From IMG/VR virus record IMGVR_UViG_3300035670_000166: 64,000 nt of DNA, one strand, 5' to 3'. Below, one piece after another: positions 512-48,233 of this stretch. Position numbers and translations under genes: made by a program. The notes under the pieces are model-generated. The model was not told where the DNA came from and ran no database searches. It saw only the letters and a list, made by a program, of their open reading frames with translations. This DNA comes from an uncultured virus (IMG/VR IMGVR_UViG_3300035670_000166) (lineage: Duplodnaviria > Heunggongvirae > Uroviricota > Caudoviricetes). The stretch's first letter is position 1, and each line of letters starts with the position of its first letter.

Positions 512-516
512 TCGTT

Positions 517-20354: not shown

Positions 20355-21224
20355 ATGTCCCAATCCGAAATACACGACTATCTGACCCAGGTTGGTCGGC
20401 ACCCCGTCCTCTCCAAGGAGGCACAACTACGCCACTGCCGCCGCATCCACGCCTGGCTCCACCACGAGGACGGCCGCGACGCCGCACCTCTCGGTATCCG
20501 CCGCGCCGGTCAACGCTCCATGGAGGTGATGACGGTCACGAACCTCCGCCTCGTCATCTCCATCGCCAAGCGCTATCAGAACCGTGGCCTCGACATGGCT
20601 GACCTCATCCAGGAAGGCAACCTCGGCCTGATCCGCGGCCTCGAGCTCTTCGACCCCACCCGTGGATACGCCGTAAGCACTTATGCCTACTGGTGGATCC
20701 GCCAAGCCATCACCCGCGCCATCCACACCCACGCCCGCACGATTCGCCTCCCTATCAATACTCACGAGCTGATCACCCGGGTGCAGCGTTTCAGCTACGA
20801 ATTCACCTCACATGCTGGCCGACCTCCCTCCCACAACGAAGTCGCCGAGGCCGTCGACGTCAGTCCCGAGCGCATCGCTCAACTCCTACAAACCCACACC
20901 AGCACGGTCTGCTGCTCCCTCGACGCCGTCTGCGCTGACAGCACCAGCCCCTTGATCGATATCCTTGCCAACCCGGAGGGCACCAACGGCGCCGAGCCCG
21001 ACGAGTTCATCCTCGCTACAGCCGCCCGCGAAGATGTCAACGCCGCATTGGCCCAGCTGAACTCCACTGAAGAAGCCATCGTCCGAGGCCGGTACTTTGA
21101 GGGCCGCACTCTGCGTGAGATCTCCGAGGAGCTCGGCTTTACCCGCTCCCGCGCCGGCCAAGTCCAGCAGACCGCCCTACGCAAACTCCGCACGCAGCTC
21201 GCCCGCCAAGGCCATGACGACTGA
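20355..21224 (+). CDS. RNA polymerase sigma-70 factor (group 1/2-like)
   Basis: YL..VGR.P.L, NLRLVISIAKRY, DLIQEGNLGL, FDPTRGY..STYAYWWIRQAI, region 4 TLREI...SRAGQ...ALRKLR. Confidence 0.95.
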   Translation: MSQSEIHDYLTQVGRHPVLSKEAQLRHCRRIHAWLHHEDGRDAAPLGIRRAGQRSMEVMTVTNLRLVISIAKRYQNRGLDMADLIQEGNLGLIRGLELFDPTRGYAVSTYAYWWIRQAITRAIHTHARTIRLPINTHELITRVQRFSYEFTSHAGRPPSHNEVAEAVDVSPERIAQLLQTHTSTVCCSLDAVCADSTSPLIDILANPEGTNGAEPDEFILATAAREDVNAALAQLNSTEEAIVRGRYFEGRTLREISEELGFTRSRAGQVQQTALRKLRTQLARQGHDD

Positions 21225-35415: not shown

Positions 35416-35419
35416 TTGT

Positions 35420-35692
35420 ATGCCATATTACCGCAAACGCATGAGTGATAAGGACTTCTACTTATCGCAAGCGCGCCGTCCATTACGCAAAGACGCCTTC
35501 TCTCGCTTTCGCGGCGTGACCAAAGGTACTGCCACGCATCCCTATCGAGCTGCTATCACTCACATGGGAGTGCGCTACCAGATTGGCGTCTACACCTGTG
35601 AAATCGAAGCCGCCCGTGCCTACAACGAAGCTGCCTTGCGCATTGTTGGGGACTACGCGATCCTCAACGACATCCCGAGTCCGGGGGCTTAG
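35420..35692 (+). CDS. Stand-alone AP2 DNA-binding domain protein
   Basis: SRFRGV......YRAAI......IG.Y..EIEAARAYNEAA....G.YA.LN. Confidence 0.8.
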   Translation: MPYYRKRMSDKDFYLSQARRPLRKDAFSRFRGVTKGTATHPYRAAITHMGVRYQIGVYTCEIEAARAYNEAALRIVGDYAILNDIPSPGA

Positions 35693-35755
35693 CTATCTGG
35701 TGAAAGCAGCCGACTCATAATCGGCCTCAGGCGAGTTCGATCCTCGCAGCCCCCA
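35683..35755 (+). tRNA. tRNA with CAT anticodon (probably Ile2, possibly Met)
   Basis: GGGGGCT/AGCCCCC acceptor, D-arm with TGG, GCCGA-CTCATAA-TCGGC anticodon arm, GCGAG-TTCGATC-CTCGC T-arm, discriminator A. Confidence 0.9.
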
Positions 35756-36047
35756 TCCATTCGTAGATCGCGTCTTCCCGGTGCGCTTCCCAGAAGCACT
35801 GAGCCCGGAACCACACGAGCCACTCCTCGGAACCCTTCGCCCGGTTGCACGTCGCGCAGGCCGCCACCAAGTTGCGCGGCACTGTGGGCCCGCCGCGACG
35901 TTTCGCCTTGATGTGATCCAGCGTGCCCGCTGGGGCTCCGCAGTACGCGCAGCAACCATCCCAGGAGCTCAAGATGCCCTGGCGGAATCGCAACTTCGCA
36001 AAGCGTTTCGAGCAGAGGAGGGACCCATCGATGTGATGGTCCAACAT
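35727..36047 (-). CDS. HNH endonuclease
   Basis: CAYCG....TLDHI..K..GG.....NLV.AC..CN..K. Confidence 0.85.
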   Translation of the reverse strand: MLDHHIDGSLLCSKRFAKLRFRQGILSSWDGCCAYCGAPAGTLDHIKAKRRGGPTVPRNLVAACATCNRAKGSEEWLVWFRAQCFWEAHREDAIYEWMGAARIELA

Positions 36048-36235
36048 GCGCCGGCCGGCCGCTGACCAAGCGTACCGAGGTCGGCCAAGCGAAGCATTGA
36101 AAAGGTTACCTTACGTATCTAACTAGCATCGATAACTTTAGTCTATACAAAAAGGCTCACTAACAAGTTTCTCTCGCAGTGTCGACGCTCAGCGATAATC
36201 TTTCTATATCAATCAGCCCTACGGCCACCGTGGAA

Positions 36236-38062
36236 ATGAATGCTGATAATTTCCGGAATGATGGTGCGTTAGTAAATGTACTGTCCGGCATGGGTCTAAC
36301 GACCAAGGACAAGACAGTTGCTACTTCTGTAGGCTCTAAACCCATTCTCAGCGAGGGCGAACTCGAAGCCCTCTACGTCCACGGCATCCCCAGACGCTAC
36401 GTCGATGCCATTTCCGATGAAATCCTGCGCCACAGGACCACGATCAAGCTTGGCGGTGACGAGCAGAAGAACGCCAACGACCTGATCGCCGACTTTGAGG
36501 AGTACCTCAAGGCCACCCAGTTCCACCACGCCTTTGCCGAGGTCGTCAAGCTTCAGCGCCTCTACGGCGGTGCCGGTCTGGTGCTTCTGATCGATGACGG
36601 TCTCCCTCCGGAGGAGCCCGTCGACCCCGCGCGGATACGCGCTGTCCGGGGCTATGTGCCCCTCTCCCGCTGGGAGCTGATTCCGGAAGACTTCTCGATC
36701 ACCGACTACACCAAGCCCTCGCACTACCGGATCACCACCGCGCAGCGCCTCACGCCTGAGCAGCAAGGGCAATATGTCAATGTGAGCATACACTCATCCC
36801 GCGTAGCGCGCTTCGACGGGCTGTACCTGCCCTGGAACGTCCGAGTGCGGAACACCGGGTGGGGCCTACCGGTGCTCCAACTCGTCTGGGAGGCGTACAA
36901 GCGCTACGAGACCGCGATGTCGGGCCTGGAGTCGATGACCACCGACTCGGACCTGTTCGTCCACAAGATCCCCGGTCTTTTCAACCGCATCGCTTCCGGC
37001 AACGAGAGCGATCTGCGCAAGCGCCTCGAGGCCAACAACCTCAGCCGCTCGGTCTACGGCGGCATGGTCGTCGACACCGAAGAGGAACTGAGTTTCCTCA
37101 ACCGCGCACTCAGCAACATCGCCTCGGCGACCGATCCCTTCGTAAAGGATCTCCAAGCAGCGACCGGTTGGCCTGCCTCGATCCTCATGGGCGACTCCCC
37201 CGGGGGCCTGGGCAAAGAGGGACGCTTCGAAGAGCGCGTCTGGGCAACCCTTGTCGAGCAGTGGCAGGAGCTCTACTGCCGAACGGCGGTGACCGAAGTC
37301 TTCACTTACATCCTCGCCTCGCGCGAAGGACCAACCCGAGGGCGGCCCCCTCAGAAGTGGAGCGTCGAGTTCCCGAGCGTTTTCACCGAGACAGCAAGTG
37401 AAAAAGCAGATTTAAGAGCAAAGATGGCCTCCGTTGATTCGCAGTACGTAAACATGGGCGTTCTAAATCCTATTGAAATACGCGAAGCCCGCTTTGGAGG
37501 GACGGAGTACAACATAGAGACCACACTAGACGAAGAGTTCAGCGAACAAATGCGGGTAAAAGCTGAATCAGACTTCCAGATGCAAATGATGAATATGGAG
37601 GCCCAGGCTCAGGCCATGGCTTCCAGGCCTCAAGAGCCGGGAGCTCCCTTGGAGGAGACTGCACCGCCTGAAGGGGAGGCTCCGATTCTTCCAGAGGGCC
37701 AGCAGAACCTTGATGCGCTTGACACCTACCAGGCGCATGGATACCGAATCCGCGTCACCGGTGAACGTGAGGGCAACAGGATCGGCCACTTGATTGCACC
37801 CGACGGGCAGCGAATTGATACCACAGAGAATGCATCGCTATTTGTTGTAGGCCCACATCGCTCTTACGGACGCAAGCTGTATCGCGCACGCTTTGACCGT
37901 CAGGGAGAACTGATCGCCGGTCCTTACGCCATCGGATTTCGCAGCGTGAAAGCCGCACAACGTGCAATCGCATCCTTTTACCCGCGGCAGACTGTGGCAG
38001 GGCTCTCCCCTGTATCCGAGGGCGAAGCAGAAGCCCTCCGTGCCGGTTGGGAGCAGTACTAA
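36236..38062 (+). CDS. Portal protein (DUF1073-like) with C-terminal extension
   Basis: Follows TerL; RLYGGA...I.DG, IH.SRV..F.G, WG.PVLQ, P.SIL.G.SPGG, F.....E...EKA; start ATG 36236 or GTG 36230. Confidence 0.85.
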   Translation: MNADNFRNDGALVNVLSGMGLTTKDKTVATSVGSKPILSEGELEALYVHGIPRRYVDAISDEILRHRTTIKLGGDEQKNANDLIADFEEYLKATQFHHAFAEVVKLQRLYGGAGLVLLIDDGLPPEEPVDPARIRAVRGYVPLSRWELIPEDFSITDYTKPSHYRITTAQRLTPEQQGQYVNVSIHSSRVARFDGLYLPWNVRVRNTGWGLPVLQLVWEAYKRYETAMSGLESMTTDSDLFVHKIPGLFNRIASGNESDLRKRLEANNLSRSVYGGMVVDTEEELSFLNRALSNIASATDPFVKDLQAATGWPASILMGDSPGGLGKEGRFEERVWATLVEQWQELYCRTAVTEVFTYILASREGPTRGRPPQKWSVEFPSVFTETASEKADLRAKMASVDSQYVNMGVLNPIEIREARFGGTEYNIETTLDEEFSEQMRVKAESDFQMQMMNMEAQAQAMASRPQEPGAPLEETAPPEGEAPILPEGQQNLDALDTYQAHGYRIRVTGEREGNRIGHLIAPDGQRIDTTENASLFVVGPHRSYGRKLYRARFDRQGELIAGPYAIGFRSVKAAQRAIASFYPRQTVAGLSPVSEGEAEALRAGWEQY

Positions 38063-40944
38063 TGAGCAATCCTTCTCTCGAGACCGTCCGCACCGCGGCC
38101 TACCTCGCTGCTCGTGAGCGACTGGATTTTCGCGGTGGCAAAACTCGTCGAGCGGTTCAATGCACACCGCCGAATGTCCAGTGCGGAGGCCGTTGTATCC
38201 CACCGGACTGGGATTGCCGCCTGAAGGGCCAAGGCGCTGATCCACACCTCCGCGCCGTCAAAACCGATCCACTGGGAGGACTGGCCAACATCCAGCGAGG
38301 CTTAGCACGTATCACGAAGGGCCTACCTAAAGGCAACTTCTCTGAAATTGAAGGAGGCAAACGAGCTATTATTCGTGGAGCCGTAAAAGTAGCTCCAGGC
38401 AACATTCAACAAAAGAAAGAGCTGCAAGCAAACCTAGAAGAAAAATCTAGACTTATTGGTATAAGCCTCGCCGTAGTAGGAGGAGCTTTAGGTGCACACG
38501 CCATTCTCATGCGCACCAATAGCTACAAGTATGGGGTTGGCAAGCGTATTAACGAAGCTGCGCGTGATGGCGTCAGTGCTGTACTCGACGTTATTCCTGG
38601 TCTAGGCCAGCAGCGTCGTACAACCCGCACAGCAGCCACATCCCGGGTGACCGCTACAGGCGCCAGAGAGCGAGCGTTCGCTGAAGAAGCCGACCTATCA
38701 CCCCGAGAGCGTGTACTGAGCACCCCCATCGAAGACCGATGGATGAAAGGGAGTTTTAAACTAAAAGCTGATTTAGACAAAGTGGATAACGCAGTATGGT
38801 CTCCTCAAGCAGGAAGTGAGCCTCTCAGCTTTTATGACTGGAACCAACAACATCGCGGAGCGTTTTGGAAAGCAGCGACAGTAGAAGGAACAGGTGAAAA
38901 AGCCGTTAGGAGAAGTATATATGCTGAACCTTCCGCACAGAAGTTCTTAGCACAGCAATGGGGATTGAGCGGACGTGATTTAGAGTCCCCTACGTTTATA
39001 AAAGACCGCATCGAAGCCTCGATAAGCCGCGAGCGAAGTGACTACGTGCAACTCGCGCAGCAGCAAGGCTTCAAAATGCGCACTGTTAGAGGTGAGCTAG
39101 ATATCGACCCGAGCGCTTATGCAGGCTTTAGACGTCGTTTAACAGACGGCATAGTGGACGATGCAGTACGCAAGAGCACGTCTGAGCACATAGAGGGTGT
39201 GCTGACAAGCACCCCAAAATCTTATGCATCTAAGATCTACAAGAAAACCGTAGACTTTTATGACACAGAATTCAAAGAAATTGGCAGGATCTTAGACGAG
39301 ACAGCCGGAGCTAGCTTAATCGACCCTGTCTTTAAGGCCAAGGGCTACAGCGAATTCATGGGCGATGCAGACGCTATTCGAGTGCAAACAATGATGCGCA
39401 CCGGCAACGCTGCCATCAAAACAAGCCGAGGCAAAGGCCACGAAGAACTGTATCTGCTTGCACACTATCACACACAAGGTTTTAAAAGGAAAACAAGCTC
39501 TTTTATCGTTCCAGATCGAGTTGCTCGAGCAGCGGCAGAAGAGATCAGTGGTACCCGTGTGCGATCAACTGAAGAAGCATTTGTCATTCTTCAAGCCACA
39601 CAAGACTTCAGAGGTGCGTCTTCAGGTATTCAAGCCGCACCCAGGACAGCACGTAGCTCTCAACCGAGGGCGGCTTCCGGAGAGAGCAGCACTCCCCGCC
39701 CCGCTCGTCGTCGCTCCGCAGCGCAAGCAATCGCCTCCATGATGAGGCAGAAAAATCCAGATGGTTCGCCTCGCTACGCCACAAGAGAGGCCGCTCAGGC
39801 CGCATACGAGCGCATGCAGACCAAGAACGATGAAAGAGAGAATGCAGAAACAAGCCAACACTTACCACTGCGTGTTCGGGCATATCTCGAGACACAAGAT
39901 CGTCTCGACAAGCGCTGCGGCAAATCGGGTATTGCTGAAAACAAGAAGTGCAGCAAGCCGACTCCAGCGCAATCACGCGAAGCTGCCCAACGTACCAAAG
40001 GAGCAGCCGAGCCCGGCGTCACCTGCGCACCTGGGACACAGCAGTGCGGCAAGATCTGCATTCCACAATCAGCGACGTGTCACATCAAAGCCGGGGGCGG
40101 CGATCTAAAGAGCAACTTGGCTAAGGGAGCGCTTGCTGCTGGAGCTGTAGCTGGAGTTGCCTTAGCTGGCCGTGCCACGTACAAAAATCGTCGAAGCATC
40201 ACTGCTTACACGGGTGGTGCTCGTTACATGGACCAGGCCATCAAGCGAATGTCTGAACAAGATGTTCGTCAGGGCCTTAGCAAGCTCCCGAAACAATGGC
40301 AGCAACCAGCTAGCAAGTTGGTAGGCAAAGCCAAAGTAGGCTTGGCACGTGTCTCCGCAGACATGCAAGGCATGGAAGTCCGCAGTATCGATAATGACAA
40401 CAACTTCAGTACTCTTGTCAATCCCAAGACGGGTCACGTACTGAGCATCGGTTCTGTCGATGACACCCTCGTGACCTTTGTATCCGAGCGAAAGGGAGCA
40501 GCTGGTCAATTCCCTAAGTACGGAGTCGCCTTCCAGACTGATCTCAGCTTCTCTCAGAAAGCAGACGTATCCAAAGCGCAGTCCCTCGCTGTATCGAAGC
40601 AAGTCAAGACAATGTTCGATGACCAGCTAGCTCAACTACCTGAGAATGCTGTTCTCTTCAACAAGCCATTCAAAGACGATGGACTTGGTAAAAAGCGTGC
40701 TTCTATCTACAAACGCTTCAAATTCCGTGAGCTAAACGGGCTTCGTGGCGGGGAAATGTACGCTCTCAAAAATCAGGGCAAGCTAACTGCAATCCCTGAA
40801 GCACAGGAGGACTACATCGCTTCCCTGATTCGCGGTGGTGACACCCAATCGGCGGCCGAACGTTTCCGTCGCTCCCGCGGTGACGCTCTCGATGCCGTGC
40901 GCTCCGCAACCTACCTCCTCATGAGCGAGAAGCTCACTGCATGA
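38062..40944 (+). CDS. Large modular head-region polyprotein (Cys motif / hydrophobic helix / cargo cassettes)
   Basis: 960 aa; RLD-preceded Cys motifs near 38119 and 39901; CxPxxxQCGxxCIP motifs at 38161 and 40024; two Gly-rich hydrophobic helices. Confidence 0.75.
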   Translation: MSNPSLETVRTAAYLAARERLDFRGGKTRRAVQCTPPNVQCGGRCIPPDWDCRLKGQGADPHLRAVKTDPLGGLANIQRGLARITKGLPKGNFSEIEGGKRAIIRGAVKVAPGNIQQKKELQANLEEKSRLIGISLAVVGGALGAHAILMRTNSYKYGVGKRINEAARDGVSAVLDVIPGLGQQRRTTRTAATSRVTATGARERAFAEEADLSPRERVLSTPIEDRWMKGSFKLKADLDKVDNAVWSPQAGSEPLSFYDWNQQHRGAFWKAATVEGTGEKAVRRSIYAEPSAQKFLAQQWGLSGRDLESPTFIKDRIEASISRERSDYVQLAQQQGFKMRTVRGELDIDPSAYAGFRRRLTDGIVDDAVRKSTSEHIEGVLTSTPKSYASKIYKKTVDFYDTEFKEIGRILDETAGASLIDPVFKAKGYSEFMGDADAIRVQTMMRTGNAAIKTSRGKGHEELYLLAHYHTQGFKRKTSSFIVPDRVARAAAEEISGTRVRSTEEAFVILQATQDFRGASSGIQAAPRTARSSQPRAASGESSTPRPARRRSAAQAIASMMRQKNPDGSPRYATREAAQAAYERMQTKNDERENAETSQHLPLRVRAYLETQDRLDKRCGKSGIAENKKCSKPTPAQSREAAQRTKGAAEPGVTCAPGTQQCGKICIPQSATCHIKAGGGDLKSNLAKGALAAGAVAGVALAGRATYKNRRSITAYTGGARYMDQAIKRMSEQDVRQGLSKLPKQWQQPASKLVGKAKVGLARVSADMQGMEVRSIDNDNNFSTLVNPKTGHVLSIGSVDDTLVTFVSERKGAAGQFPKYGVAFQTDLSFSQKADVSKAQSLAVSKQVKTMFDDQLAQLPENAVLFNKPFKDDGLGKKRASIYKRFKFRELNGLRGGEMYALKNQGKLTAIPEAQEDYIASLIRGGDTQSAAERFRRSRGDALDAVRSATYLLMSEKLTA

Positions 40945-41813
40945 AGCTGGTCGAGAGGTACAACGAGCTCCTCCGCACTCTCGAGGACGACACCGTCCTC
41001 ATGCTGGACCGCATCCTCGATGCAGGTTTTAACCGCCTGGTGCGCCGAACTCGGATTCACATGAAGGCGGGCTACACCGACCCCGCCCAGCGCAACCTCG
41101 CTCTACTACAGGAGTTCCGGCAGCTCGTCCCGGTCTTCCGAGCGGATCGTATCGATGCGTATGACCGGATCCTCCGTCTCCTACTGCAAACCGCTGCTCG
41201 CTATGGAGTCACCGTGGCAACCGAGCTCGGTGATCAGGCCAAGCCCGGCCCCCGCGTCGACGTTTCGATCCCTCTCGAAGCAACCGCGGCCGCTGCGGCT
41301 CAAGCCAAGGGCTACCTCCGCAAACACGGCGAGCGCTTTGCGGCCACATCGGCCGCGACGATCGCCCAGGGCGTAGCCGAAGGCCGCCCAACCGACGCCA
41401 TGGTCCAGGACCTGCGCTCCCGCCTCGGGGTGGTGAAGTCCCGCGCTGAAGCGATTGTGCGCACCGAATCACTTCGTGCATACAACGACGCTTCTAATAC
41501 GTACTACGCGGCACAAGGCATCGAACTTGTTATGTATTACGCCACCGCTGATGACCGCGCCTGCCCAATCTGCGCCCCGAGAGCGGGCAACATCTACCGT
41601 AGGCAAGATATTCGTGTCCCTTTACACCCTAGATGCCGTTGTTACCTCGCACCTTGGGACGCTGACATCGCTTCCATGGACCAAAATTATGCCGATATGC
41701 GAAAAGCGCATAAAAAAGAGGTCGAACAGGCAGTTCAACGCCTAGGCGCCGCACCTGTTTCCCTCAACAAGGCCGCGGTCTTCGAACAGATCGCACCTGT
41801 TCCGGTGTCCTAG
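40941..41813 (+). CDS. Minor head morphogenesis protein (MuF / SPP1 gp7-like)
   Basis: RAEAIVRTE..RAYN, D.RACPIC, P.HPRCRC. Confidence 0.9.
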   Translation: MKLVERYNELLRTLEDDTVLMLDRILDAGFNRLVRRTRIHMKAGYTDPAQRNLALLQEFRQLVPVFRADRIDAYDRILRLLLQTAARYGVTVATELGDQAKPGPRVDVSIPLEATAAAAAQAKGYLRKHGERFAATSAATIAQGVAEGRPTDAMVQDLRSRLGVVKSRAEAIVRTESLRAYNDASNTYYAAQGIELVMYYATADDRACPICAPRAGNIYRRQDIRVPLHPRCRCYLAPWDADIASMDQNYADMRKAHKKEVEQAVQRLGAAPVSLNKAAVFEQIAPVPVS

Positions 41814-41870
41814 CCAGGAACAGGTTCTTACACTGGCCTATCACAAACCGGGCGGACGCGCCCCCTAGTC

Positions 41871-42689
41871 ATGGCCGCTTCCACCACTAAGAAGCCCACC
41901 GCCTACCGCGAAGGCCGCGCCGATAAGAGCAAGAAGCCCTCGATCGAGATCGAGATCAAGCCCGAGGGCGAAGAAATGGACGCCTCTAAGCCCCACTCCC
42001 GCAAGCGCAGCGCCAAGGGCGCCAAGCACACCAAAGCCCCCATGGACGGTGGCATGTACGGCAAAAAGCCGATGGACGGGGAAGGCTGCAACTGCGGTAA
42101 GCGCAAAGCCAAGTGCGACGGAAACTGCGGCAAGAAGATGGACCGCAACGACGCCCTCACCCCTCAGGAGTACCTGGCCGCCTGCGAGCTCGGCATCCAG
42201 GGCCGCGCCCGCTCTTACATCCGCGCCCGCCTCGACGCTGAAGAGCGCCTCGATCTGAAGTGCGGCAAAGGCTCCATCAGCCAAGGTGAGAAATGCACCA
42301 AAGGAGCAGCGACAAAGGCACAAGGCCCCAGTGCAGCGGTAAAAGTTGGGCAAGCTGCAAAAGCTGTAGGCCTGGGGGTGCTCGAGACCGGTAAGTGGGT
42401 CTCCGGCTACAACATCGGCAAGACCATTGCCTCGGGTGTTACCCAAGGGAAAAACGAAAAGGGATCAGGGGGTGCCAAAGCGGGCTCCATCATCGGTTCC
42501 GCTCTTCTCCTTAACCCAATCGCAGGTATCGGTGCGGCTCGCCGCGTAGGTGCTTTTGGTTCCACCGACCTCCAGCAGCACGCTCAGAACGAGAAGAAGG
42601 AAAAAGCCTGGCGTAAGAGCGTCGGTTATCGCGATGGAGGAACCTATGCCAAAGGTTTCAAAGTCGACTATGCACAGCTGGGGCTTTGA
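41871..42689 (+). CDS. Modular head-region protein (Lys/Cys-rich N-terminus plus one cassette)
   Basis: RLD-LKCGKGSISQGEKCTKG motif, Gly-rich helices, C-terminal YAKGFKVD tag. Confidence 0.75.
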   Translation: MAASTTKKPTAYREGRADKSKKPSIEIEIKPEGEEMDASKPHSRKRSAKGAKHTKAPMDGGMYGKKPMDGEGCNCGKRKAKCDGNCGKKMDRNDALTPQEYLAACELGIQGRARSYIRARLDAEERLDLKCGKGSISQGEKCTKGAATKAQGPSAAVKVGQAAKAVGLGVLETGKWVSGYNIGKTIASGVTQGKNEKGSGGAKAGSIIGSALLLNPIAGIGAARRVGAFGSTDLQQHAQNEKKEKAWRKSVGYRDGGTYAKGFKVDYAQLGL

Positions 42690-44109
42690 ACATGACTCTC
42701 ACCCCGAGCACGGTCCGTTGCGACCTAAGATGTGGTAAAGGCGCCATCTCCAAAGGCGAAAAATGTACTAAGGGCGCTGCTCAAGAAGTTATTGAAAAAG
42801 CCGCACCTATAGCTCTCGGCTTGGGGCTGGCTGCAGGTGCTATCGCGCTGCATCGTCGGGGTAAAAGACCTCGTATCGGGGATGGACGGACTGTGCCAAA
42901 CATTCCCAAGACTCCTCCTAAGCCTGGAAAGGTTTCCAGCCCGGCGAGCAAAGCTCAAGCCGAGGCAATGACGACCCGTGTAACCGAGCGCGTTAAACAG
43001 CGTGTGCGTGAAAACCCGCAGAAAATAGCCTACGAAATGCAAGCGGAAGAGATTAAAAGCGCAGCGATGAGAGATGTGGTGCGTAGCAAGAAGTTCCAAG
43101 ATGCGTTTAAGCGCAGAGCCATGACTATGGAAGAGCTAGCTGAACTAGCTCGCGATCCTGATGCTTTCGATAAATGGATGAAGCGCACAGACTCCGCACT
43201 AACCCCGAGCACGATCCGCTCAGACCTCAAATGTGGTAAAGGCGCCATCTCCAAAGGCGAAAAATGCACTAAAGGCCCTGCAACTCCAGCTAAGTCAAAC
43301 AACACCATCCGCAACATCGCCCTCGGTGTAGGCGGCGCCGCTGTTCTTGGAGGCATTGCTTTAGGGGTCAGCAAATATCGTTCGACGCAACGTATTACCA
43401 ATAAGCCTCTAGGTAAAGATACCTCTCCGGAACAGGGTATCTCTCAGGGAAAAGCAGCTTTCAAAGAAGCACGTGGAGTAGCACTCGGTGCAGAGATCGC
43501 CGGAGCTGGCTTAGGGATCGTAGGCGCCGGTCTGGTGGCGAACGAGTACGCCAAAGAGCCCAAGAAGAGGCAGGCCGGAAGCATTATGGCTGGTGGCACT
43601 CTTATGTATCTAGGTACTGGCACCTTTATGTCGGGTCGCCAGATGCGCACTCAGCTTGCTACCACTGAAGCCGAGTGGACCATGGGCGCAGAAGACTACA
43701 AGCGTCAGTGGTATTCAGCTCGAGAGCAAGCGCAGCAACGCGCAAAGCAAAACGCAGCCTCAGGCAGCCAGGGCAGTCGCAACGTAGGTAGCAACAAAGC
43801 TGTAGCGAACCCATTCAAAGACCTCGGCATGTCCGAGGGCGCGTCAGACGCAGACATAAAGAAGAAATGGCTCCAGCTAATGCGAGAAAACCACCCCGAC
43901 GTCGGTGGTGACCCCCGCAAAGCCCAGCAGATCAACGCCGCCTACCAAGAGATCCTGCGACGCCGCGGCAAGCTCGACTCCATCTACGCCGACGGCTTCC
44001 ATATCGACTGGGAGGCCATTGCGCTGTGACCCTCACTCCGAGCACGATACGAAGCGACCTCAAGTGCGGCAAAGGCGCCATCTCCCAAGGGGAGAAGTGC
44101 ACCAAAGGG
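42246..44109 (+). repeat. Four dispersed direct repeats (60-84 nt) encoding (TLTPSTxRxD)LKCGKGAISxGEKCTKG
   Basis: Copies at 42246-42305, 42692-42775, 43199-43276 and 44026-44109; ATGTGGTAAAGGCGCCATCTCCAAAGGCGAAAAATG is identical in copies 2 and 3. Confidence 0.9.
42692..44029 (+). CDS. Two-cassette modular protein with C-terminal membrane-anchored J-domain
   Basis: Two Cys motifs, four hydrophobic segments, NPFKDLG...IKKKW..L.RENHPDVGG......INAAYQEI J-domain, C-terminal YADGFHID tag. Confidence 0.8.
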   Translation: MTLTPSTVRCDLRCGKGAISKGEKCTKGAAQEVIEKAAPIALGLGLAAGAIALHRRGKRPRIGDGRTVPNIPKTPPKPGKVSSPASKAQAEAMTTRVTERVKQRVRENPQKIAYEMQAEEIKSAAMRDVVRSKKFQDAFKRRAMTMEELAELARDPDAFDKWMKRTDSALTPSTIRSDLKCGKGAISKGEKCTKGPATPAKSNNTIRNIALGVGGAAVLGGIALGVSKYRSTQRITNKPLGKDTSPEQGISQGKAAFKEARGVALGAEIAGAGLGIVGAGLVANEYAKEPKKRQAGSIMAGGTLMYLGTGTFMSGRQMRTQLATTEAEWTMGAEDYKRQWYSAREQAQQRAKQNAASGSQGSRNVGSNKAVANPFKDLGMSEGASDADIKKKWLQLMRENHPDVGGDPRKAQQINAAYQEILRRRGKLDSIYADGFHIDWEAIAL

Positions 44110-44976
44110 CCGACTACCCAGGCGAAGATCGCCCTGGGCGTGGGCCTAACGGCCGGTGCCCTTGCTCTTGGTGCTCTTGCAACACGCCGTAAGCCAGGTG
44201 CCGCGCGCCCAGCGAGCACCCCGCCCCCCGAGAGCGGCGCCATTCCCAAACCCTCCGGCCCACCTCGTATTCCCGGCTCACCGCCACGCGCTGCCCTTTC
44301 TCCCGCACCTCCGCGTCAATCCAAGACCCAGCGCATGCGGGCCAACACCGCCACTGCAGTGCGCAAAGCCGAGGGTGCCATCGCCCAGACCGCCCGCGAG
44401 GAAGTCCGTCGCGTCGCTCAAATCGGCAACACCATGGCTGCCACAGGCGAAGCCACGGGCATGGCGGTGAAGACCGGCCTCCGCGAGCTTCGTCTCCGCA
44501 CCGAGGCCGCCCGCCGTCGGTTCGAGCCCGGGTACCGCGCTCCTGACCAACGCCGCCTTCCAGGTGGGGTGCAAGCTCCCCTCAACGCGCAAGCTCCCGA
44601 GCGCGAGGCCATCCCCATCGATCCACGCACAGGGCAACCCAGGCGCCCCCGCGCCCAAGGCTTCGGCCGCCGGGACAACTACATCCAGCACTACGCCCCA
44701 GTTCAGCTCCAACCTCCCCTGCGCCGCGACACCGAGGACGGCAAGAAGTACACCAAGATCGTCACCAACCCCGAGACCGGCCGCAAAAACAAGGTCCGCT
44801 ACGGCGCTAAGGGCTACAAGATCGCCCCCGGCACCGACAAAGGCGACAACTACTGCGCCCGCAGCTTTGGCGACATGAAGTCGCACGGCAAGGACTGCTC
44901 CGGCCCTGATCGCAACACGCCCCTATGCCTCTCCCGGGCGAAATGGAAGTGCTCTGGGAAGACCTCACGCCGGTGA
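44026..44976 (+). CDS. Modular protein: one cassette plus a C-terminal basic Cys-containing domain
   Basis: MTLTPSTIRSD-LKCGKG..., TM helix, Pro-rich linker, then RRD and a KKY..V......K.V.YG..GY....YCARS...W.C domain. Confidence 0.75.
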   Translation: MTLTPSTIRSDLKCGKGAISQGEKCTKGPTTQAKIALGVGLTAGALALGALATRRKPGAARPASTPPPESGAIPKPSGPPRIPGSPPRAALSPAPPRQSKTQRMRANTATAVRKAEGAIAQTAREEVRRVAQIGNTMAATGEATGMAVKTGLRELRLRTEAARRRFEPGYRAPDQRRLPGGVQAPLNAQAPEREAIPIDPRTGQPRRPRAQGFGRRDNYIQHYAPVQLQPPLRRDTEDGKKYTKIVTNPETGRKNKVRYGAKGYKIAPGTDKGDNYCARSFGDMKSHGKDCSGPDRNTPLCLSRAKWKCSGKTSRR

Positions 44977-45137
44977 AACCCGCTCATCCCCCCGAGCACG
45001 CCATCACCCGCCTCTGGTTCTGGAACCACGCCGGAGCCCAGACACTTCTGTGCCCCGCCCACGAAGCGACAGACATCCGACGTCGCCTGATCGCCGAGGG
45101 CGCCGTGGTCTACCACACCGAGGTCTATAACGCTTAG
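44973..45137 (+). CDS. Small hypothetical protein (54 aa)
   Basis: GTGA overlap with the upstream stop. Confidence 0.5.
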   Translation: MKPAHPPEHAITRLWFWNHAGAQTLLCPAHEATDIRRRLIAEGAVVYHTEVYNA

Positions 45138-45349
45138 AGCCCTTCGATCAGCCCCGAGGCCGAGATCCCATACAAGTCTGCTAACTCAAATAGCTTTGAT
45201 AATGCGAACTCAATTTCCCCCTTTTCCAAGCGACAATAAGCTGCTTGACTGATAGCAAGTTTCTCCGCTATCTGCGTCTGCGTGTATCCCGTCTTCCCTC
45301 TTAGCTGTCTAATACGCTCACAAAGTGCGAGCTGACGATAGATCGCCAC
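45134..45349 (-). CDS. Xre-family HTH regulator
   Basis: IRQLR...GYTQTQIAEKLAISQAAYCRLEKGE. Confidence 0.85.
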   Translation of the reverse strand: MAIYRQLALCERIRQLRGKTGYTQTQIAEKLAISQAAYCRLEKGEIEFALSKLFELADLYGISASGLIEGL

Positions 45350-45411
45350 TTCCGGCCATACGCTATCCGAATCAGCCTAACGCTTGCAGCGATAAGCCTT
45401 AAGCTGACGCC

Positions 45412-46674
45412 ATGGAAACATCCGTTTCTCGCTACGATTTCGCGCCCATTACGGGAAGCGAAACCACCGACGAGGGTTATCTCCGCGTCTGGTGTCGTGC
45501 TGCGCGTGTAGGCACTCAGCTCTACAAGCGCGCGGATGGCTCCCAGGTCCGGGAATACCGTCCTCCAGAAGAGGTCAGTTCCCCGGAATCGCTCTCCACG
45601 TTCGGCATGAAACCCGCAACGTGGGGTCACCCACCTGTTCTTCTCGATTCCGCCAATACCAAGCAGTTCCAGGTCGGTTACTCCGGTAGCCAGGTCCGGT
45701 ACAACGACGGTTTTGTCGAAGTTGCCCTAGTCGTCACTGACCAGGACAGCATCGAAAAGATCAAGCGCAAAGACGCCACTGAGGTCTCTGCCGGCTACAA
45801 GGTCGACTTCGACCCGACTCCCGGTATCACCCCCGAGGGCGAGTCCTACGACGGCGTTCAGCGCAACATCCGGGTGAACCACATCGCGATCGTCCCCCGC
45901 GGCCGGGCTGGCCCGGAGGTTCGCCTGCTCATGGATCGCATGGATGCGGCCGATGCCGTCGCCTTCGATCCGGCGCTCCAGCCCTGTACACCTGCATCTC
46001 CCGTAATGGCTTCCGTCAAACTCGACGGCCTGGAGATCGATCTGCCCGCAGAAGCAGCTAGCGCGGTCCAGTCCTTCGCACGGGACATGGAGCGCCAGCT
46101 CAAGTCTGTGACTACTGAGCGCGATCAGCTTGCCACCAAGCTCGATGCGCAGCAGGAAGAGATCGACGCCCTTGCCTACGAAAAAGAGGCCGCTGAAGGC
46201 CGAGCCGACGCTCTCGAAGAGCGTGTCACCGAGCTCGAATCCACCTCCTCCAGCCGCATCGACACAGCCGAGCTCGACCAACTCGTCGCTGCTCGCCTCG
46301 CCACGCTGCAGAAGCTGGCACCCGCCTTCGCCGAAGACTTCAAATTCGACGGCATCGATAACGAGGACCTCTACGCCCAGGCGTTCGAGAACCTCACAGG
46401 CTCCGCTCCTCGCGAAGACGCTGAATCTGGCTACGTCCAAGGCGTTGTGGACGGCATTCTCGCCGCCCGCGCTGATGCCGACGAGGACGAAGCAGGCGAA
46501 GAAACCCCCGAGGACGCAGGCGATGAGCCTGAAACCAAGGAGGACCGCGCCGACAGCACCACTTCCCTCCGCGACGCACTGAAAGGTGCCGGCCGTGGCT
46601 CTGCTTCCTCGGTAGACACCTACCGCGCCAAGCAAGCGGAAGCCTGGAAGCGTCCCCTCACCGCCACTAAGTAA
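45412..46674 (+). CDS. Capsid maturation protease / scaffold (DUF2213-like)
   Basis: T.EGYL...ARVG.Q.Y, YRPPEEV, T.GHP, EVSAGY, YD.VQRNI..NHIAIV.RGRAG; acidic coiled-coil scaffold C-terminus. Confidence 0.88.
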   Translation: METSVSRYDFAPITGSETTDEGYLRVWCRAARVGTQLYKRADGSQVREYRPPEEVSSPESLSTFGMKPATWGHPPVLLDSANTKQFQVGYSGSQVRYNDGFVEVALVVTDQDSIEKIKRKDATEVSAGYKVDFDPTPGITPEGESYDGVQRNIRVNHIAIVPRGRAGPEVRLLMDRMDAADAVAFDPALQPCTPASPVMASVKLDGLEIDLPAEAASAVQSFARDMERQLKSVTTERDQLATKLDAQQEEIDALAYEKEAAEGRADALEERVTELESTSSSRIDTAELDQLVAARLATLQKLAPAFAEDFKFDGIDNEDLYAQAFENLTGSAPREDAESGYVQGVVDGILAARADADEDEAGEETPEDAGDEPETKEDRADSTTSLRDALKGAGRGSASSVDTYRAKQAEAWKRPLTATK

Positions 46675-47315: not shown

Positions 47316-48233
47316 ATGACCACCGAAATCCGTAACGACGAGGTCGGCATCTTTCTCGCCCGCGAGCTGGAAACCATCCTGGCTCGCACCTTCGAGGTCG
47401 AGTACGCCGACATCAAGTACAGCAGCCTGATCCCCATTTCTTCTGAAGTGGGCAATGGTGCTGACTCCTTCACCTATCGCGTCTTCGACAAGCAAGGCTC
47501 GATGAAGGTGATCGGGGACAAGGCCCAAGACCTGCCCCGCGCTGACGTGCTCCGCAAGGAAGTGACCCACCCGGTTCGCTCCCTCGGTGCATCCTTCGCC
47601 TACACCATCCAGGAAACCCGTGCCGCCGCCATGGTGCCCGGCATGAACCTGGAGCAGCGCCGCGCCAACGCTGTGCGCCGCGCCTACGAGGAGAAAGTGC
47701 AGGAGATCGCCTACTTCGGCGATGCCCCCTCCGGCATGAAGGGCTTCTTCAACAACGACCAAGTCGACAAACTTGTCCCCAACAAGTGGTTCGACACCGC
47801 CGGTGTTACCACCGACGAAATGCTGGAACTGCTCAACGAGGCGCCCACCCGCCTCGTGCAGAACTCCAACATGAAGGAGATGCCTAACACGATGCTGGTG
47901 CCCTACAACGTGTACCGCGTCATCTCCACCACCCCGCGCAGCACCACCTCCGACACCACGGTGATGGAGTTCTTCCTGCGCACCAACCCGATGATCTCCG
48001 CCATCGAGCCCATCAACGAGCTCGAGGCCGGCAAATCGGGCGGCTCCCTCTCCAAGGACCGCATCGTGGTGTACGACCGCAGCCCCGACAAGCTGCAACT
48101 GCACATCCCCCAGCCCCTGGAGTTCCTGCCTCCCCTGCGTCAGGCCCTGGAGTTCTCCGTTGCTGCTCACGCACGCATCGGCGGCCTCGCGCTCTACTAC
48201 CCCAAGAGCGCCATCGTCCTTGAGAAGGCTTGA
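47316..48233 (+). CDS. Major capsid protein (DUF2184 / encapsulin-like HK97 fold)
   Basis: FLARELE.I....E.EY, Y.IQE...A, IAYFGD....G.FN, GG...YYP. Confidence 0.9.
   Translation: MTTEIRNDEVGIFLARELETILARTFEVEYADIKYSSLIPISSEVGNGADSFTYRVFDKQGSMKVIGDKAQDLPRADVLRKEVTHPVRSLGASFAYTIQETRAAAMVPGMNLEQRRANAVRRAYEEKVQEIAYFGDAPSGMKGFFNNDQVDKLVPNKWFDTAGVTTDEMLELLNEAPTRLVQNSNMKEMPNTMLVPYNVYRVISTTPRSTTSDTTVMEFFLRTNPMISAIEPINELEAGKSGGSLSKDRIVVYDRSPDKLQLHIPQPLEFLPPLRQALEFSVAAHARIGGLALYYPKSAIVLEKA

What the first reader, a model, noticed from the sequence alone, without database searches (positions are those of the whole stretch)
38062..44976. Candidate undescribed system: repeated leader-RxD / Cys motif / membrane helix / variable cargo cassettes in the head module
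Seen: four genes between the portal and the DUF2213 protease (interrupted only by MuF) share one grammar. A short leader ends in R-x-D (MTLTPSTVRCD, SALTPSTIRSD, MTLTPSTIRSD, AEERLD, TQDRLD, ARERLD). A Cys motif follows (L[KR]CGKG[AS]IS[KQ]GEKCTKG four times, KRCGKSGIAENKKCSK once, CxPxxxQCGxxCIPxxxxC twice). Then comes a Gly/Ala-rich hydrophobic helix (IALGLGLAAGAIAL, IALGVGGAAVLGGIALGV, IALGVGLTAGALALGAL, GALAAGAVAGVALAG, LIGISLAVVGGALGA), and finally an unrelated cargo. There are about six cassettes. Established: T4 internal proteins carry a ~10-aa capsid-targeting leader removed by the prohead protease, and MuF-linked genes can carry virion-delivered cargo. Inference: these are capsid-packaged, protease-matured membrane effectors or ejection proteins delivered to the cyanobacterial host, with a common targeting module and interchangeable payloads.
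Basis: partly seen in the sequence, partly recalled or inferred. Interest (0 to 1): 0.92.

Follow-up and report, generated by a model that had tools for sequence, protein, structure and literature searches.

The report
Modular head-cargo genes in a cyanophage
A group of uncultured relatives of a Synechococcus phage carries, among its head genes, a fast-changing set of proteins that share one address tag (short leader, two-cysteine loop, glycine-rich helix, tail peptide) on swappable enzyme payloads, and these are probably packed into the capsid, trimmed there and injected into the host.

Summary
The core motif CG-x3-I-x5-C occurs 7 times in the window, all in four co-oriented genes between portal and head protease, against 0.32 per shuffle.

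The same grammar recurs in 74 uncultured viral loci of one S-CBS4-related lineage, always inside the portal-to-protease interval (172 of 172 motifs in 32 complete loci). It also recurs in 426 protein clusters from metagenomes. It is absent from Pfam, PHROGs, NCBIfam and 50,697 cultured phage records.

Payloads differ between near-identical phages. They include truncated kinases, J domains, ADP-ribosyltransferases, LRAT/NlpC-P60 and lipases.

The R-x-D that ends each leader matches the likely cutting site of the phage's own DUF2213 protease:
- The Edman-determined capsid-protein cut of phage TLS (after K-N-D) aligns with R-N-D in this capsid protein.
- R-x-D is 3.3-fold enriched in the scaffold.

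Two points are new here. Most small members carry a conserved C-terminal tail ([RK]-x-D-S-[IV]-[YW]-A-x-G-F). The "membrane helix" shows no charge asymmetry between its flanks, so it is not shown to be a classical membrane anchor.

Packaging, cleavage and delivery remain inferences. Verdict: a new variant of capsid-packaged effector systems, and a good experimental target.

The parts
36179..38062 (+). Portal protein (627 aa). Its C-terminal part, from about 37527, lies in the block that diverges from the nearest relative.
   Evidence: Pfam Phage_portal_3 2e-55; blastn against G001.
38047..40944 (+). g965, the large two-cassette protein. Cassette 1: leader helix VRTAAYLAARERLD (38086-38127), 4-Cys loop (38161-38217), hydrophobic helix (38446-38511), payload 1 of unknown family. 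Cassette 2: leader helix ...DRLD (39868-39909), 2-Cys loop (39916-39951), 4-Cys loop (40024-40080), hydrophobic helix (40117-40167), payload 2 of unknown family. It ends in a leader-like C-terminal helix (40891-40941).
   Evidence: No Pfam, PHROG, NCBIfam or PDB sequence match. In relatives the second payload is usually LRAT/NlpC-P60.
40941..41813 (+). Stand-alone MuF-like minor head protein (290 aa) with no fused toxin domain.
   Evidence: Pfam Phage_Mu_F 3.4e-14; PHROG 115 minor head protein.
41871..42689 (+). g272. It has a charged N-terminal part with a 4-Cys cluster, then R-N-D|ALTP (42144-42164), leader RSYIRARLDAEERLD (42210-42254), 2-Cys loop (42261-42296), a weak hydrophobic stretch (42480-42539) and a tail-like C-terminus YRDGGTYAKGFKVDYAQLGL (42627-42686).
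   Evidence: Family consensus from 30 loci.
42686..44029 (+). g447, a fusion of two cassettes. Cassette a: leader MTLTPSTVRCD (42692-42724), Cys loop (42731-42766), helix (42800-42850). Junction RTD|SALTPSTIRSD (43184-43225). Cassette b: Cys loop (43232-43267), three hydrophobic helices (43316-43366, 43478-43540, 43571-43633), J domain with HPD (43814-43948), tail GKLDSIYADGFHIDWEAIAL (43967-44026).
   Evidence: Pfam DnaJ 9.1e-07. In relatives cassette b is a separate gene of about 278 aa starting MTLTP. HPD is invariant in 79 sequences. AlphaFold model.
44026..44976 (+). g316. Leader (V/M)TLTPSTIRSD (44026-44058), Cys loop (44065-44100), helix (44128-44178), Pro-rich linker, spacer RRD...RRD (44668-44730), then an 81-aa Cys-containing C-terminal domain (44731-44973).
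   Evidence: The C-terminal domain is 71% identical to the C-terminal half of a 159-aa hypothetical protein of cyanomyophage S-TIM5. No Pfam family.
45134..45349 (-). Small HTH_3 regulator on the opposite strand, between the cassette array and the protease.
   Evidence: Pfam HTH_3 2.3e-10. S-CBS4 has a 'transcriptional repressor' in the same place.
45412..46674 (+). DUF2213 prohead protease (aa 1-175) fused to a scaffold-like coiled coil (aa 176-420). The scaffold part has six conserved R-x-D sites (aa 176, 264, 282, 334, 353, 379).
   Evidence: Pfam DUF2213 1.9e-41; PHROG 530 head maturation protease. R-x-D counts and conserved columns.
47316..48233 (+). Major capsid protein (305 aa from the conserved Met). 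Its N-terminus MTTEIRND|EVGIF carries R-N-D at the position aligned with the experimentally determined TLS cut.
   Evidence: Pfam Major_capside 4.1e-56; N-termini in relatives; BLASTP alignment with TLS; TLS Edman data.

Best explanation
The four genes, and their many relatives in one uncultured S-CBS4-related phage lineage, encode capsid-internal cargo proteins built on a common address tag.

Proposed mechanism, step by step:
1. They are made with the portal, MuF and the protease-scaffold from one co-oriented, start/stop-overlapping gene block (shown).
2. They are recruited into the procapsid by the conserved ends, that is the leader with Cys loop and helix and/or the C-terminal tail DS[IV][YW]AxGF (inferred).
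3. The DUF2213 prohead protease trims them after basic-x-Asp. This removes the 11-residue leader and the tail, separates fused cassettes, and in g316 releases the C-terminal domain (inferred from sequence and from homology to the TLS capsid cut).
4. They stay in the head and leave with the DNA (inferred by analogy with T4 Alt and internal proteins, SPP1 gp7/MuF and polyvalent proteins).
5. In the host, the Gly/Ala-zipper helix would hold the payload at or in the cytoplasmic membrane or drive oligomerisation. The payloads would act on host proteins and lipids. Here the payloads are a J domain, an 81-aa Cys domain and three unknown domains. In relatives they are truncated RIO-like kinases, ADP-ribosyltransferases, LRAT/NlpC-P60, lipases and a zincin.

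The conserved module DNA also gives homology for cassette shuffling, which would explain the rapid turnover of payloads. The role of the invariant Cys pair (disulfide staple or shared metal site) is open.
For: Position and synteny
- In 32 complete loci, 172 of 172 core motifs lie between portal and protease, an interval that is 48% of the bases examined.
- The order portal, large protein, MuF, g272-type protein, 1-6 N-tagged genes, protease is conserved.
- The genes overlap stop and start with portal and MuF.

Protease code
- TLS has a DUF2213-type protease. Its mature capsid protein starts ASDMGIW by Edman degradation (PMC11447400, passages read). In the TLS sequence this follows ...GAKND.
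- BLASTP aligns TLS K25-N-D with R6-N-D of this capsid protein. MT[TSNR][ED]IRND is conserved in 24 of the 26 distinct lineage capsid N-termini; the other two read MTDTRLD and MTRDIRND.
- In the scaffold part of 33 lineage proteins, S-CBS4 included, R.D is 195 observed against 58.5 expected and K.D 105 against 34.8. D.R is 13 against 58.5 and K.E 2 against 33.1. Six conserved R.D columns are present.
- The TLS scaffold has K.D 10 against 2.7 and JulesPiccard 9 against 2.6.
- 563 of 677 modules (83%) have R.D within 15 residues upstream, against 211 of 2405 random positions (9%) in the same proteins. The D-to-Cys gap is 2 in 448.
- R-x-D also sits at fusion junctions (RTD|SALTP, RND|ALTP, RRD|xxLTP) and just before the conserved C-terminal domain of g316.

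Tail
- D[STA][IVMAL][YWF]A.GF is present in 231 of 481 motif-bearing sequences. GF lies exactly 9 residues (165 cases) or 2 residues (41 cases) from the C-terminus. It is mostly preceded by RRD, KLD, IKD, KRD, RGD or RSD.

Payloads typical of injected effectors
- Pkinase/RIO/ABC1 matches stop at about profile position 150 of 263. Also found: DnaJ, LRAT/NlpC-P60, ADPrib_exo_Tox, lipase/cutinase/Tle3, ATLF-like zincin.
- PMC5512222 describes such truncated kinases, ARTs and MuF-linked effectors as virion-delivered (passages read).

Turnover
- In 31 locus pairs with proteases at least 95% identical, on average 44% of cassette-region proteins have a counterpart. Window against G001 gives 2 of 8.

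Disorder of the ends
- The AlphaFold model gives pLDDT below 50 for the leader with Cys loop and for the tail, as expected of linear motifs.
Against: - No virion proteome, N-terminal sequence or expression data exist for any member. No cultured phage among 50,697 records carries the module, so every functional step is inference.
- The cleavage code rests on one Edman result in a capsid protein only 27% identical to this one. Three other DUF2213 phages (Vibrio 1.106.O, Rhizobium RHph_I72, Pectobacterium PEAT2) show no basic-x-Asp enrichment in their scaffolds.
- The lineage sequences are related, so the counts are not independent events.
- R-x-D may simply be part of a folded module.
- Hydrophobic helices would be expected to send a cytoplasmically made protein to the membrane rather than into a procapsid.
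- g965 shows no R.D enrichment overall (4 observed, 4.5 expected).
- About 16% of modules lack R.D nearby, and 250 of 481 sequences lack the tail.
- S-CBS4, the nearest cultured relative, has the same head genes without any cassette, so the module is not needed for head assembly.
Confidence: 0.5

Rival explanations
1. The proteins are late-expressed membrane proteins of the infected cell and are not virion components. The hydrophobic helix anchors kinases, J domains and lipases to the cytoplasmic or thylakoid membrane for host takeover, superinfection exclusion or control of lysis. On this reading R-x-D and the Cys loop are just parts of a small folded ectodomain or endodomain.
For: - 376 of 675 modules are followed within 60 residues by a 17-residue window with Kyte-Doolittle mean of at least 1.5.
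- The J-domain cassette has three hydrophobic segments before a C-terminal J domain. Its best NCBIfam hit is the membrane-anchored co-chaperone DjlA, at 26.7 bits, far below the cut-off of 162.
- A Cys pair that is invariant in 598 of 599 profile hits would suit a disulfide on the periplasmic side.
- The loop has a sub-threshold likeness to a disulfide repeat, myxo_disulf_rpt (17.9 bits, cut-off 20.8).
Against: - The flanks have no charge asymmetry: K+R is 3.55 on the N side and 3.73 on the C side per 15 residues, and the C side is the more basic in only 173 of 376.
- 299 of 675 modules lack a TM-grade stretch.
- Fused cassettes such as g447 would put successive modules and payloads on opposite sides of the membrane.
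- It does not explain the strict confinement between portal and protease, the protease-type motif at every boundary or the C-terminal tail.
Confidence: 0.2
2. The proteins are structural ejection (pilot) proteins. After release, the Gly-zipper helices assemble into a conduit or membrane-breaching complex for DNA entry, as with P22 gp7/gp20/gp16 or T7 gp14-16. The enzyme domains (LRAT/NlpC-P60, lipases) mainly help to cross the envelope rather than reprogramme the host.
For: - The genes sit where ejection proteins of portal/MuF phages are encoded.
- The helices are rich in Gly and Ala: G+A fraction 0.55, and 4.4 small-xxx-small pairs per 17 residues.
- LRAT/NlpC-P60 is the commonest second payload of the large protein, in 12 of the 24 large (at least 870 aa) representatives scanned. 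Lipase-like payloads also occur.
- Foldseek gives weak likeness of the three-helix part to alpha-pore-forming toxins AhlB and SmhB (E 0.2, not significant).
Against: - The phage is a siphovirus with an 1875-aa tape-measure-sized protein (52551-58178) that would normally form the channel.
- Kinase, J-domain and ART payloads need cytoplasmic ATP, DnaK or NAD.
- A structural conduit would not be expected to turn over this quickly between phages with identical capsids.
- S-CBS4 does without these proteins.
Confidence: 0.15
3. The shared module is only an assembly or scaffolding-core element (an inner-body-like filler) or a recombination handle. On this reading the variable parts are passengers without a delivered function.
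For: - The module DNA is the only part that still aligns between otherwise unrelated cassettes.
- R-x-D sites as in the scaffold suggest degradation along with the scaffold.
Against: - The payloads keep intact catalytic or functional signatures, for example HPD invariant in 79 J-domain cassettes.
- The payloads are recognisable enzyme families across hundreds of clusters, which argues for selection on their function.
Confidence: 0.1

Closest known systems
Phage T4 internal proteins IPI-III and Alt, with the capsid-targeting sequence removed by prohead protease gp21
   Same: - A short N-terminal leader ends in the protease's own cutting motif.
- The same motif marks the capsid protein and the scaffold.
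- Unrelated payloads sit behind one leader, including an ADP-ribosyltransferase in relatives.
- Delivery with the DNA is proposed.

   Basis: gp21 specificity I/LxE and the CTS reference as cited in PMC12991175 (passages); Alt as described in PMC5512222.
   Different: - The protease family differs (DUF2213, not gp21) and so does the code (basic-x-Asp, not I/L-x-Glu).
- The tag is much larger: a Cys loop, a Gly/Ala-zipper helix and a C-terminal tail.
- The virus is a siphovirus with MuF.
- There is no sequence homology (no PHROG or Pfam hit).
- Nothing has been shown experimentally.
Polyvalent proteins and MuF- or portal-fused effectors (Iyer, Burroughs, Anand, de Souza, Aravind 2017, PMC5512222)
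   Same: - Encoded among late head genes next to MuF.
- Payload repertoire of truncated protein kinases, ARTs, peptidases and lipid- or wall-active enzymes.
- Several payloads in one chain in relatives: LRAT plus DnaJ, or ART plus kinase.
- Mosaic, cassette-like variation.
- Predicted processing into units.
   Different: - The payloads are spread over 4-9 genes.
- Each unit is headed by a Cys-loop and hydrophobic-helix module and many end in a conserved tail. The words 'transmembrane', 'cysteine', 'DnaJ' and 'NlpC' do not occur in that paper's main text (its FTP supplements were not seen).
- Processing would be by the prohead protease, not by a built-in MPTase.
- MuF here stands alone.
Proteolytically matured ejection proteins of giant phages (phiKZ, SPN3US)
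   Same: Many head-internal proteins carry propeptides that the prohead protease cuts at a short motif also used in the capsid protein (abstracts of PMC10052503 and PMC7411985, search listing).
   Different: - Those are giant myoviruses with a gp21-like protease and a different motif.
- They have no Cys loop, helix or tail tag.
- Their cleavage is shown by mass spectrometry, which is lacking here.
Ejection proteins of phage P22 (gp7, gp16, gp20)
   Same: They are head-carried proteins that leave with the DNA and then associate with the envelope (abstract of PMC8402733, search listing).
   Different: - They are conserved structural proteins, not a hypervariable enzyme-bearing array.
- There is no homology.

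Membership tests
T4-type capsid-targeting-sequence (CTS) cargo | A short N-terminal leader ends in the cleavage motif of the phage's own prohead protease, and the motif is shared with capsid protein and scaffold. | tested here: met
   This holds at sequence level only.
- Leaders end in R-x-D.
- The capsid protein has R-N-D aligned with the Edman-defined TLS cut.
- The scaffold is 3.3-fold enriched in R.D.
- 83% of modules have R.D upstream, against 9% of random positions.
T4-type capsid-targeting-sequence (CTS) cargo | The proteins are present in mature virions in processed form. | not testable with these tools
   No cultured member exists and no proteome is available.
T4-type capsid-targeting-sequence (CTS) cargo | Homology to T4 internal proteins or to the gp21 protease. 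| tested here: not met
   The protease is Pfam DUF2213 / PHROG 530. The cassette proteins have no Pfam or PHROG family apart from DnaJ.
Polyvalent proteins (Iyer et al. 2017) | Two or more biochemically disparate effector domains in one polypeptide. | tested here: inconclusive
   Met in relatives: P0001 has LRAT plus DnaJ, P0034 and P0137 have ART plus kinase, P0015 has kinase plus DnaJ. In the window only one payload, the J domain, has a family. g965 has two payload segments of unknown family.
Polyvalent proteins (Iyer et al. 2017) | Encoded with virion packaging or head genes, often with MuF. | tested here: met
Polyvalent proteins (Iyer et al. 2017) | A built-in zincin-like MPTase for self-processing. 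| tested here: not met
   No such domain was found in the window's proteins. Among the 66 longest relatives, one has an ATLF-like zincin match.
MuF polymorphic toxins | A toxin domain fused to the C-terminus of the MuF domain. | tested here: not met
   MuF is 290 aa. The Phage_Mu_F match covers residues 140-236 and no further domain is present. MuF is 287-304 aa in the 29 related complete loci (30 with the window) where it was found.
DjlA-type membrane-anchored J proteins | A J domain with HPD, plus equivalog-level similarity to DjlA. | tested here: not met
   HPD is invariant, but the NCBIfam DjlA score is 26.7 bits against a cut-off of 162.
Integral membrane proteins with a signal-anchor | A TM-grade hydrophobic segment with positive-inside charge asymmetry. 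| tested here: inconclusive
   376 of 675 modules have a stretch with Kyte-Doolittle mean of at least 1.5. The flanks are equally basic (3.55 against 3.73 K+R). AlphaFold places the segments in 33-62-residue helices.
Disulfide or zinc mini-domains (for example myxo_disulf_rpt, zinc knuckles) | A match above the curated threshold, or a confident fold that brings the Cys residues together. | tested here: not met
   myxo_disulf_rpt scores 17.9 bits against a cut-off of 20.8. AlphaFold pLDDT is 44-65 over the Cys loops.

The most novel reading that the evidence does not exclude
This is a self-contained address code for loading, processing and re-deploying proteins through a phage capsid. It would work as follows:
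- A protease-cleavable leader and a C-terminal docking tail load any payload into the procapsid.
- The Cys loop and glycine-zipper helix survive trimming.
- After ejection they insert or oligomerise at the host membrane next to the entry site.

One recurrent payload, the membrane-proximal J domain, would recruit host DnaK there. It could act like the mitochondrial Pam18/Tim14 import motor, pulling or refolding the unfolded proteins that follow the DNA. The array would then be a programmable effector-injection system of uncultured picocyanobacterial siphophages, evolving by cassette exchange at the conserved module.
Probability: 0.22. Interest if true: 0.85.

Novelty: new variant of a known kind. 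Interest (0 to 1): 0.7.

Why it matters
- If these proteins are packaged and injected, the tag lets the delivered effector set of a whole lineage of environmental cyanophages be read directly from sequence. That covers hundreds of protein clusters, most with payloads of unknown function.
- It gives a testable cleavage code (basic-x-Asp) for the very widespread DUF2213 head proteases. A tblastn search matched this protease in 1271 cultured phage records, T1-like coliphages and Klebsiella phages among them.
- It offers a compact tag that could be tried for loading foreign proteins into siphophage capsids.
- The fast payload turnover next to identical capsid genes marks the region as a likely front line of phage-host conflict in picocyanobacteria.

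Tried and rejected
1. Complex prediction of the C-terminal tail (last 36 residues of the J-domain cassette, with alignment) against the protease-scaffold. The tool gave no verdict (score 0.00, mark 0.32; controls not run). This is evidence neither for nor against binding.
2. AlphaFold on the N-terminal 170 residues of g965 (46-row alignment). Mean pLDDT was 59 and the Cys region about 55-65, so it does not decide between a zinc site and disulfides.
3. AlphaFold on the J-domain cassette followed by Foldseek against the PDB. Only J domains matched. The AhlB/SmhB pore-toxin rows have E 0.2 and very large rmsd, so they are not used as evidence.
4. ESM Atlas look-up of g965 gave no usable hit.
5. 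I first labelled the C-terminal domain of g316 'DUF5872-like'. I rejected this. Pfam finds nothing in it even at E 1. In relatives DUF5872 is a separate upstream domain.
6. I first thought the homologue in S-TIM5 was a stand-alone copy of the predicted cleavage product. It is the C-terminal half of a 159-aa protein.
7. The prophage idea is rejected. A scan of 185,579 species' genomes found one 1030-base contig in a metagenome-assembled genome.
8. The promoter and terminator scan of 35400-46000 found no more sites than the shuffles.
9. The 9-sequence alignment A1 was too diverse for the locus finder. The 5-sequence A2 was used instead, which biases the loci found towards close forms of the motif.
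10. Generality of the code: three other DUF2213 phages show no basic-x-Asp enrichment, so the code may hold only for some branches.
11. Literature: searches for DUF2213, polyvalent proteins with MuF, S-CBS4 structural proteins, cyanophage siphovirus virion proteome with MuF and capsid targeting sequence with ejection proteins turned up no description of this module.

Full report
WHAT IS THERE

The window is most of a siphophage genome. It holds DNA polymerase A, a primase-helicase, a sigma factor, an endolysin, a tape-measure-sized gene and tail genes. Its head genes are closest to Synechococcus phage S-CBS4, with the capsid protein 55.9% identical.

Between the portal (36179-38062) and the DUF2213 protease-scaffold (45412-46674) lie five co-oriented genes whose stops and starts overlap:
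- g965 (38047-40944)
- a stand-alone MuF (40941-41813)
- g272 (41871-42689)
- g447 (42686-44029)
- g316 (44026-44976)

The two Cys motifs are one family, because the 4-Cys form C-x6-CG-x2-CI-x5-C also fits the core CG-x3-I-x5-C.

The core occurs 7 times in six frames of the 64-kb window, all on the + strand between 38182 and 44065. In 100 dinucleotide shuffles the mean is 0.32 and the maximum 2. In 2000 residue shuffles of the four proteins the mean is 0.0005. The module is also visible as DNA repeats of 69 and 83 nt at 67-88% identity.

HOW WIDE IT IS

None of g965, g272 and g316 has a Pfam, PHROG or NCBIfam family. g447 has only a J domain.

Searches of 50,697 cultured phage records (tblastn):
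- g965: nothing.
- g447: only J-domain hits.
- The 35-aa module: only chance-level hits, E of 3 or more.

S-CBS4 has the same portal, MuF-like, protease and capsid genes. Between them it carries glycosyltransferases, a methyltransferase and small soluble proteins, and no module.

A scan of one genome for each of 185,579 prokaryote species found a single 1030-base contig, so this is not a prophage feature.

The IMG/VR scan with the close-motif alignment A2 found 146 relatives, of which 74 loci were kept. All 74 belong to the same head-module lineage (phmmer with the window's proteins). Their proteases are 68-100% identical to the window's.

A profile of 9 modules, searched against 1.84 billion representative proteins, gave 426 clusters at E of 0.001 or better and 140 at 1e-10 or better. 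These proteins carry up to 4 modules and reach 1838 aa. A word-indexed search with g447 gave 184 proteins. All come from metagenome sources and none has an informative name.

ANATOMY ACROSS THE LINEAGE

In 33 loci that span portal to protease (32 distinct records) the order is conserved:
- portal
- a large protein of 626-1529 aa with 1-4 modules
- MuF
- a g272-type protein with the module at about aa 116-171
- one to six genes whose module starts at about residue 14-17
- protease

The interval measures 5-11.5 kb. All 172 core motifs of these loci lie in that interval, which is 48% of the bases examined.

The leaders come in two related forms:
- N-terminal: MTLTPxTxRxD.
- A longer helical form...LTPEGFRTAAYLAxxxRLD or YIRARLDxAERLD, used at the start of the large protein and at internal positions.

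Some proteins carry both in series with a fossil Met (RARLDTAMNLTPSSVRAD|LKCG). g447 is itself a fusion. Its second half exists in many relatives as a separate gene of about 278 aa starting MTLTP.

The Cys pair is present in 598 of 599 profile hits. The profile weights the Cys residues, so this count is biased.

- It is present in 231 of 481 distinct motif-bearing sequences.
- GF sits exactly 9 residues (165 cases) or 2 residues (41 cases) from the C-terminus.
- It is usually preceded by RRD, KLD, IKD, KRD, RGD or RSD.

In the window g447 ends GKLDSIYADGFHIDWEAIAL and g272 ends in a variant.

PAYLOADS

Pfam was run on two sets. The first was the 66 longest of the 150 listed profile hits. The second was 98 representatives, clustered at 70% identity from 160 proteins of at least 140 aa in 31 related loci.

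Families found:
- RIO/ABC1/APH-like protein kinases, whose matches stop near position 150 of the 263-position Pkinase profile
- DnaJ
- LRAT/NlpC-P60
- ADPrib_exo_Tox
- alpha/beta-hydrolase, lipase, cutinase and Tle3-like
- an ATLF-like zincin (one protein)
- DUF5872, DUF6496 and Rho_N

Many payloads have no family. Truncated kinases, ARTs and MuF-linked enzymes are the repertoire described for virion-delivered polyvalent proteins (PMC5512222, passages read). That paper's main text holds no occurrence of 'transmembrane', 'cysteine', 'DnaJ' or 'NlpC'. Its FTP supplements were not seen.

In the window itself:
- The payloads are a J domain with HPD (invariant in a 79-row alignment).
- There is an 81-aa Cys-containing domain, 71% identical to the C-terminal half of a 159-aa hypothetical protein of cyanomyophage S-TIM5.
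- The charged N-terminal part of g272 carries a conserved 4-Cys cluster.
- g965 has two segments with no match anywhere.

TURNOVER

Against the nearest record, G001, the flanks are 97.3% and 95.7% identical in DNA. Between 37527 and 44727 there are only patches of 73-84% identity, and most of these are the module itself.

With 100% identical proteases, only 2 of 8 cassette-region proteins of window and G001 have a counterpart (at least 40% identity over at least 70% of the length). Over 31 locus pairs with proteases at least 95% identical, the mean shared fraction is 0.44, and it is 0 of 6 for L063 against L059.

IS R-x-D A PROTEASE SITE?

The best anchor is outside the lineage. Phage TLS is T1-like and its protease-scaffold matches the window's DUF2213 protein family. 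Its mature capsid protein starts ASDMGIW by Edman degradation (PMC11447400, passages read). In the TLS sequence this is preceded by ...GAKND.

BLASTP aligns TLS K25-N-D with R6-N-D of the window's capsid protein (27% identity over 303 columns, E 6e-35). The N-terminus MT[TSNR][ED]IRND|(E/S/T/Q/D)VG is conserved in 24 of the 26 distinct lineage capsid N-termini; the other two read MTDTRLD|NNVG and MTRDIRND|ADVG, which keep the basic-x-Asp.

In the scaffold part of 33 lineage proteins, S-CBS4 included:
- R.D is 195 observed against 58.5 expected.
- K.D is 105 against 34.8.
- D.R is 13 against 58.5.
- K.E is 2 against 33.1.
- Six R.D columns are conserved, three of them shared with S-CBS4 at 42% identity.

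The TLS and JulesPiccard scaffolds have K.D at 10 against 2.7 and 9 against 2.6.

Against generality, three other DUF2213 phages show no such enrichment, and related sequences are not independent counts.

In the cassettes:
- 563 of 677 modules have R.D within 15 residues upstream, against 211 of 2405 random positions in the same proteins.
- The motif recurs at fusion junctions (RTD|SALTP in g447, RND|ALTP in g272, RRD|xxLTP after the g316-type domain in relatives).
- It recurs at the tail (RRD|S...).
- It occurs twice just before the conserved C-terminal domain of g316.

I read this as good but indirect support for trimming by the prohead protease. That in turn implies the proteins are inside the procapsid when the protease is active.

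THE HELIX AND THE Cys LOOP

Of 675 modules, the best 17-residue window within the next 60 residues has a Kyte-Doolittle mean of:
- at least 1.5 in 376
- 1.0-1.5 in 154
- below 1.0 in 145

The windows are 55% Gly plus Ala, with 4.4 small-xxx-small pairs. The two flanks are equally basic (3.55 against 3.73 K+R per 15 residues). The C-terminal flank is the more basic in 173 of 376, equal in 66 and less basic in 137.

So there is no positive-inside signal. This weakens the reading as ordinary co-translationally inserted membrane proteins. It leaves open late insertion or helix-helix assembly.

AlphaFold on the J-domain cassette (79 rows, mean pLDDT 74.9) gives three helices of 33, 42 and 62 residues at pLDDT of about 85-94, then a J domain. 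The leader with Cys loop and the tail score below 50.

The 4-Cys region of g965 is modelled as a small hairpin at low confidence. The sub-threshold likeness of the loop to a disulfide repeat is a lead only. Whether the Cys pair forms a disulfide or shares a metal is open.

VERDICT

The link to the head module, the cargo exchange and a protease-type boundary code are supported by computation. Packaging, cleavage, membrane insertion and delivery are inferred.

The closest known systems are the T4 capsid-targeting leaders with Alt and the internal proteins, and the polyvalent or MuF-linked effectors. It is not a member of either by homology or by their defining parts (gp21 protease, MPTase, MuF fusion). 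It most likely works like them.

Other agents' notes in this scan describe leader-plus-protease-site cargo genes with other codes in other uncultured phages (unchecked here). The general theme therefore seems recurrent. The Cys loop, Gly-zipper helix and C-terminal tail are particular to this lineage.

Noticed in passing
window 37527-38062: The block that diverges from the nearest relative G001 starts inside the portal gene. The portal has an extra C-terminal domain of about 110 aa after a Pro/Glu-rich linker, and this part is only about 74% identical in DNA while the rest of the portal is 97% identical.
   Followed up: partly
window 45134-45349 (-): A small HTH_3 regulator gene sits on the opposite strand between the cassette array and the protease. 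S-CBS4 has an annotated transcriptional repressor in the same position, so it is a conserved interruption of the head operon.
   Followed up: no
window 35420-36047: A 90-aa ORF (35420-35692, +, no Pfam hit) and an HNH endonuclease (35727-36047, -) lie between terminase and portal.
   Followed up: no
window 42084-42131 (g272 aa 72-87): The g272 family has a further conserved 4-Cys cluster (C.CG..KG.KCDG.CG) in a very basic N-terminal region, upstream of R-x-D|ALTPQEYL. It may be a metal site or a nucleic-acid-binding part.
   Followed up: partly
L057, L048, L068 (g272-type genes): These proteins read ...RARLDTAMNLTPSSVRAD|LKCG. This is the internal helical leader followed by an N-terminal-type leader with a retained Met, which looks like a fossil of gene fusion.
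   Followed up: partly
window 44731-44973; L086 364-843: The C-terminal 81 aa of g316 are 71% identical to the C-terminal half of a 159-aa hypothetical protein of cyanomyophage S-TIM5. Weaker matches occur in roseophages and Vibrio phages. This is a small Cys-containing domain of unknown function shared across unrelated marine phages.
   Followed up: partly
window 149-2781: Two DUF7936 paralogues (149-511 and 2464-2781) flank a 619-aa fibre-like gene that has a C-terminal Peptidase_S74 intramolecular chaperone domain.
   Followed up: no
window 20355-21224: The phage encodes a full sigma-70 family factor with regions 2, 3 and 4.
   Followed up: no
L080 (1030-base contig of a metagenome-assembled genome): This is the only hit to the module in 185,579 prokaryote genomes. 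It is a 1-kb contig binned with a freshwater actinobacterial genome, and is most likely a mis-binned phage fragment.
   Followed up: no
L001 12873-13525 (S-CBS4 gp018, gp019): Where this lineage has cassettes, S-CBS4 has small soluble proteins. From memory, one looks like the DUF6496 family, which appears as a payload in one module-bearing relative (P0008). I did not scan the S-CBS4 proteins.
   Followed up: no
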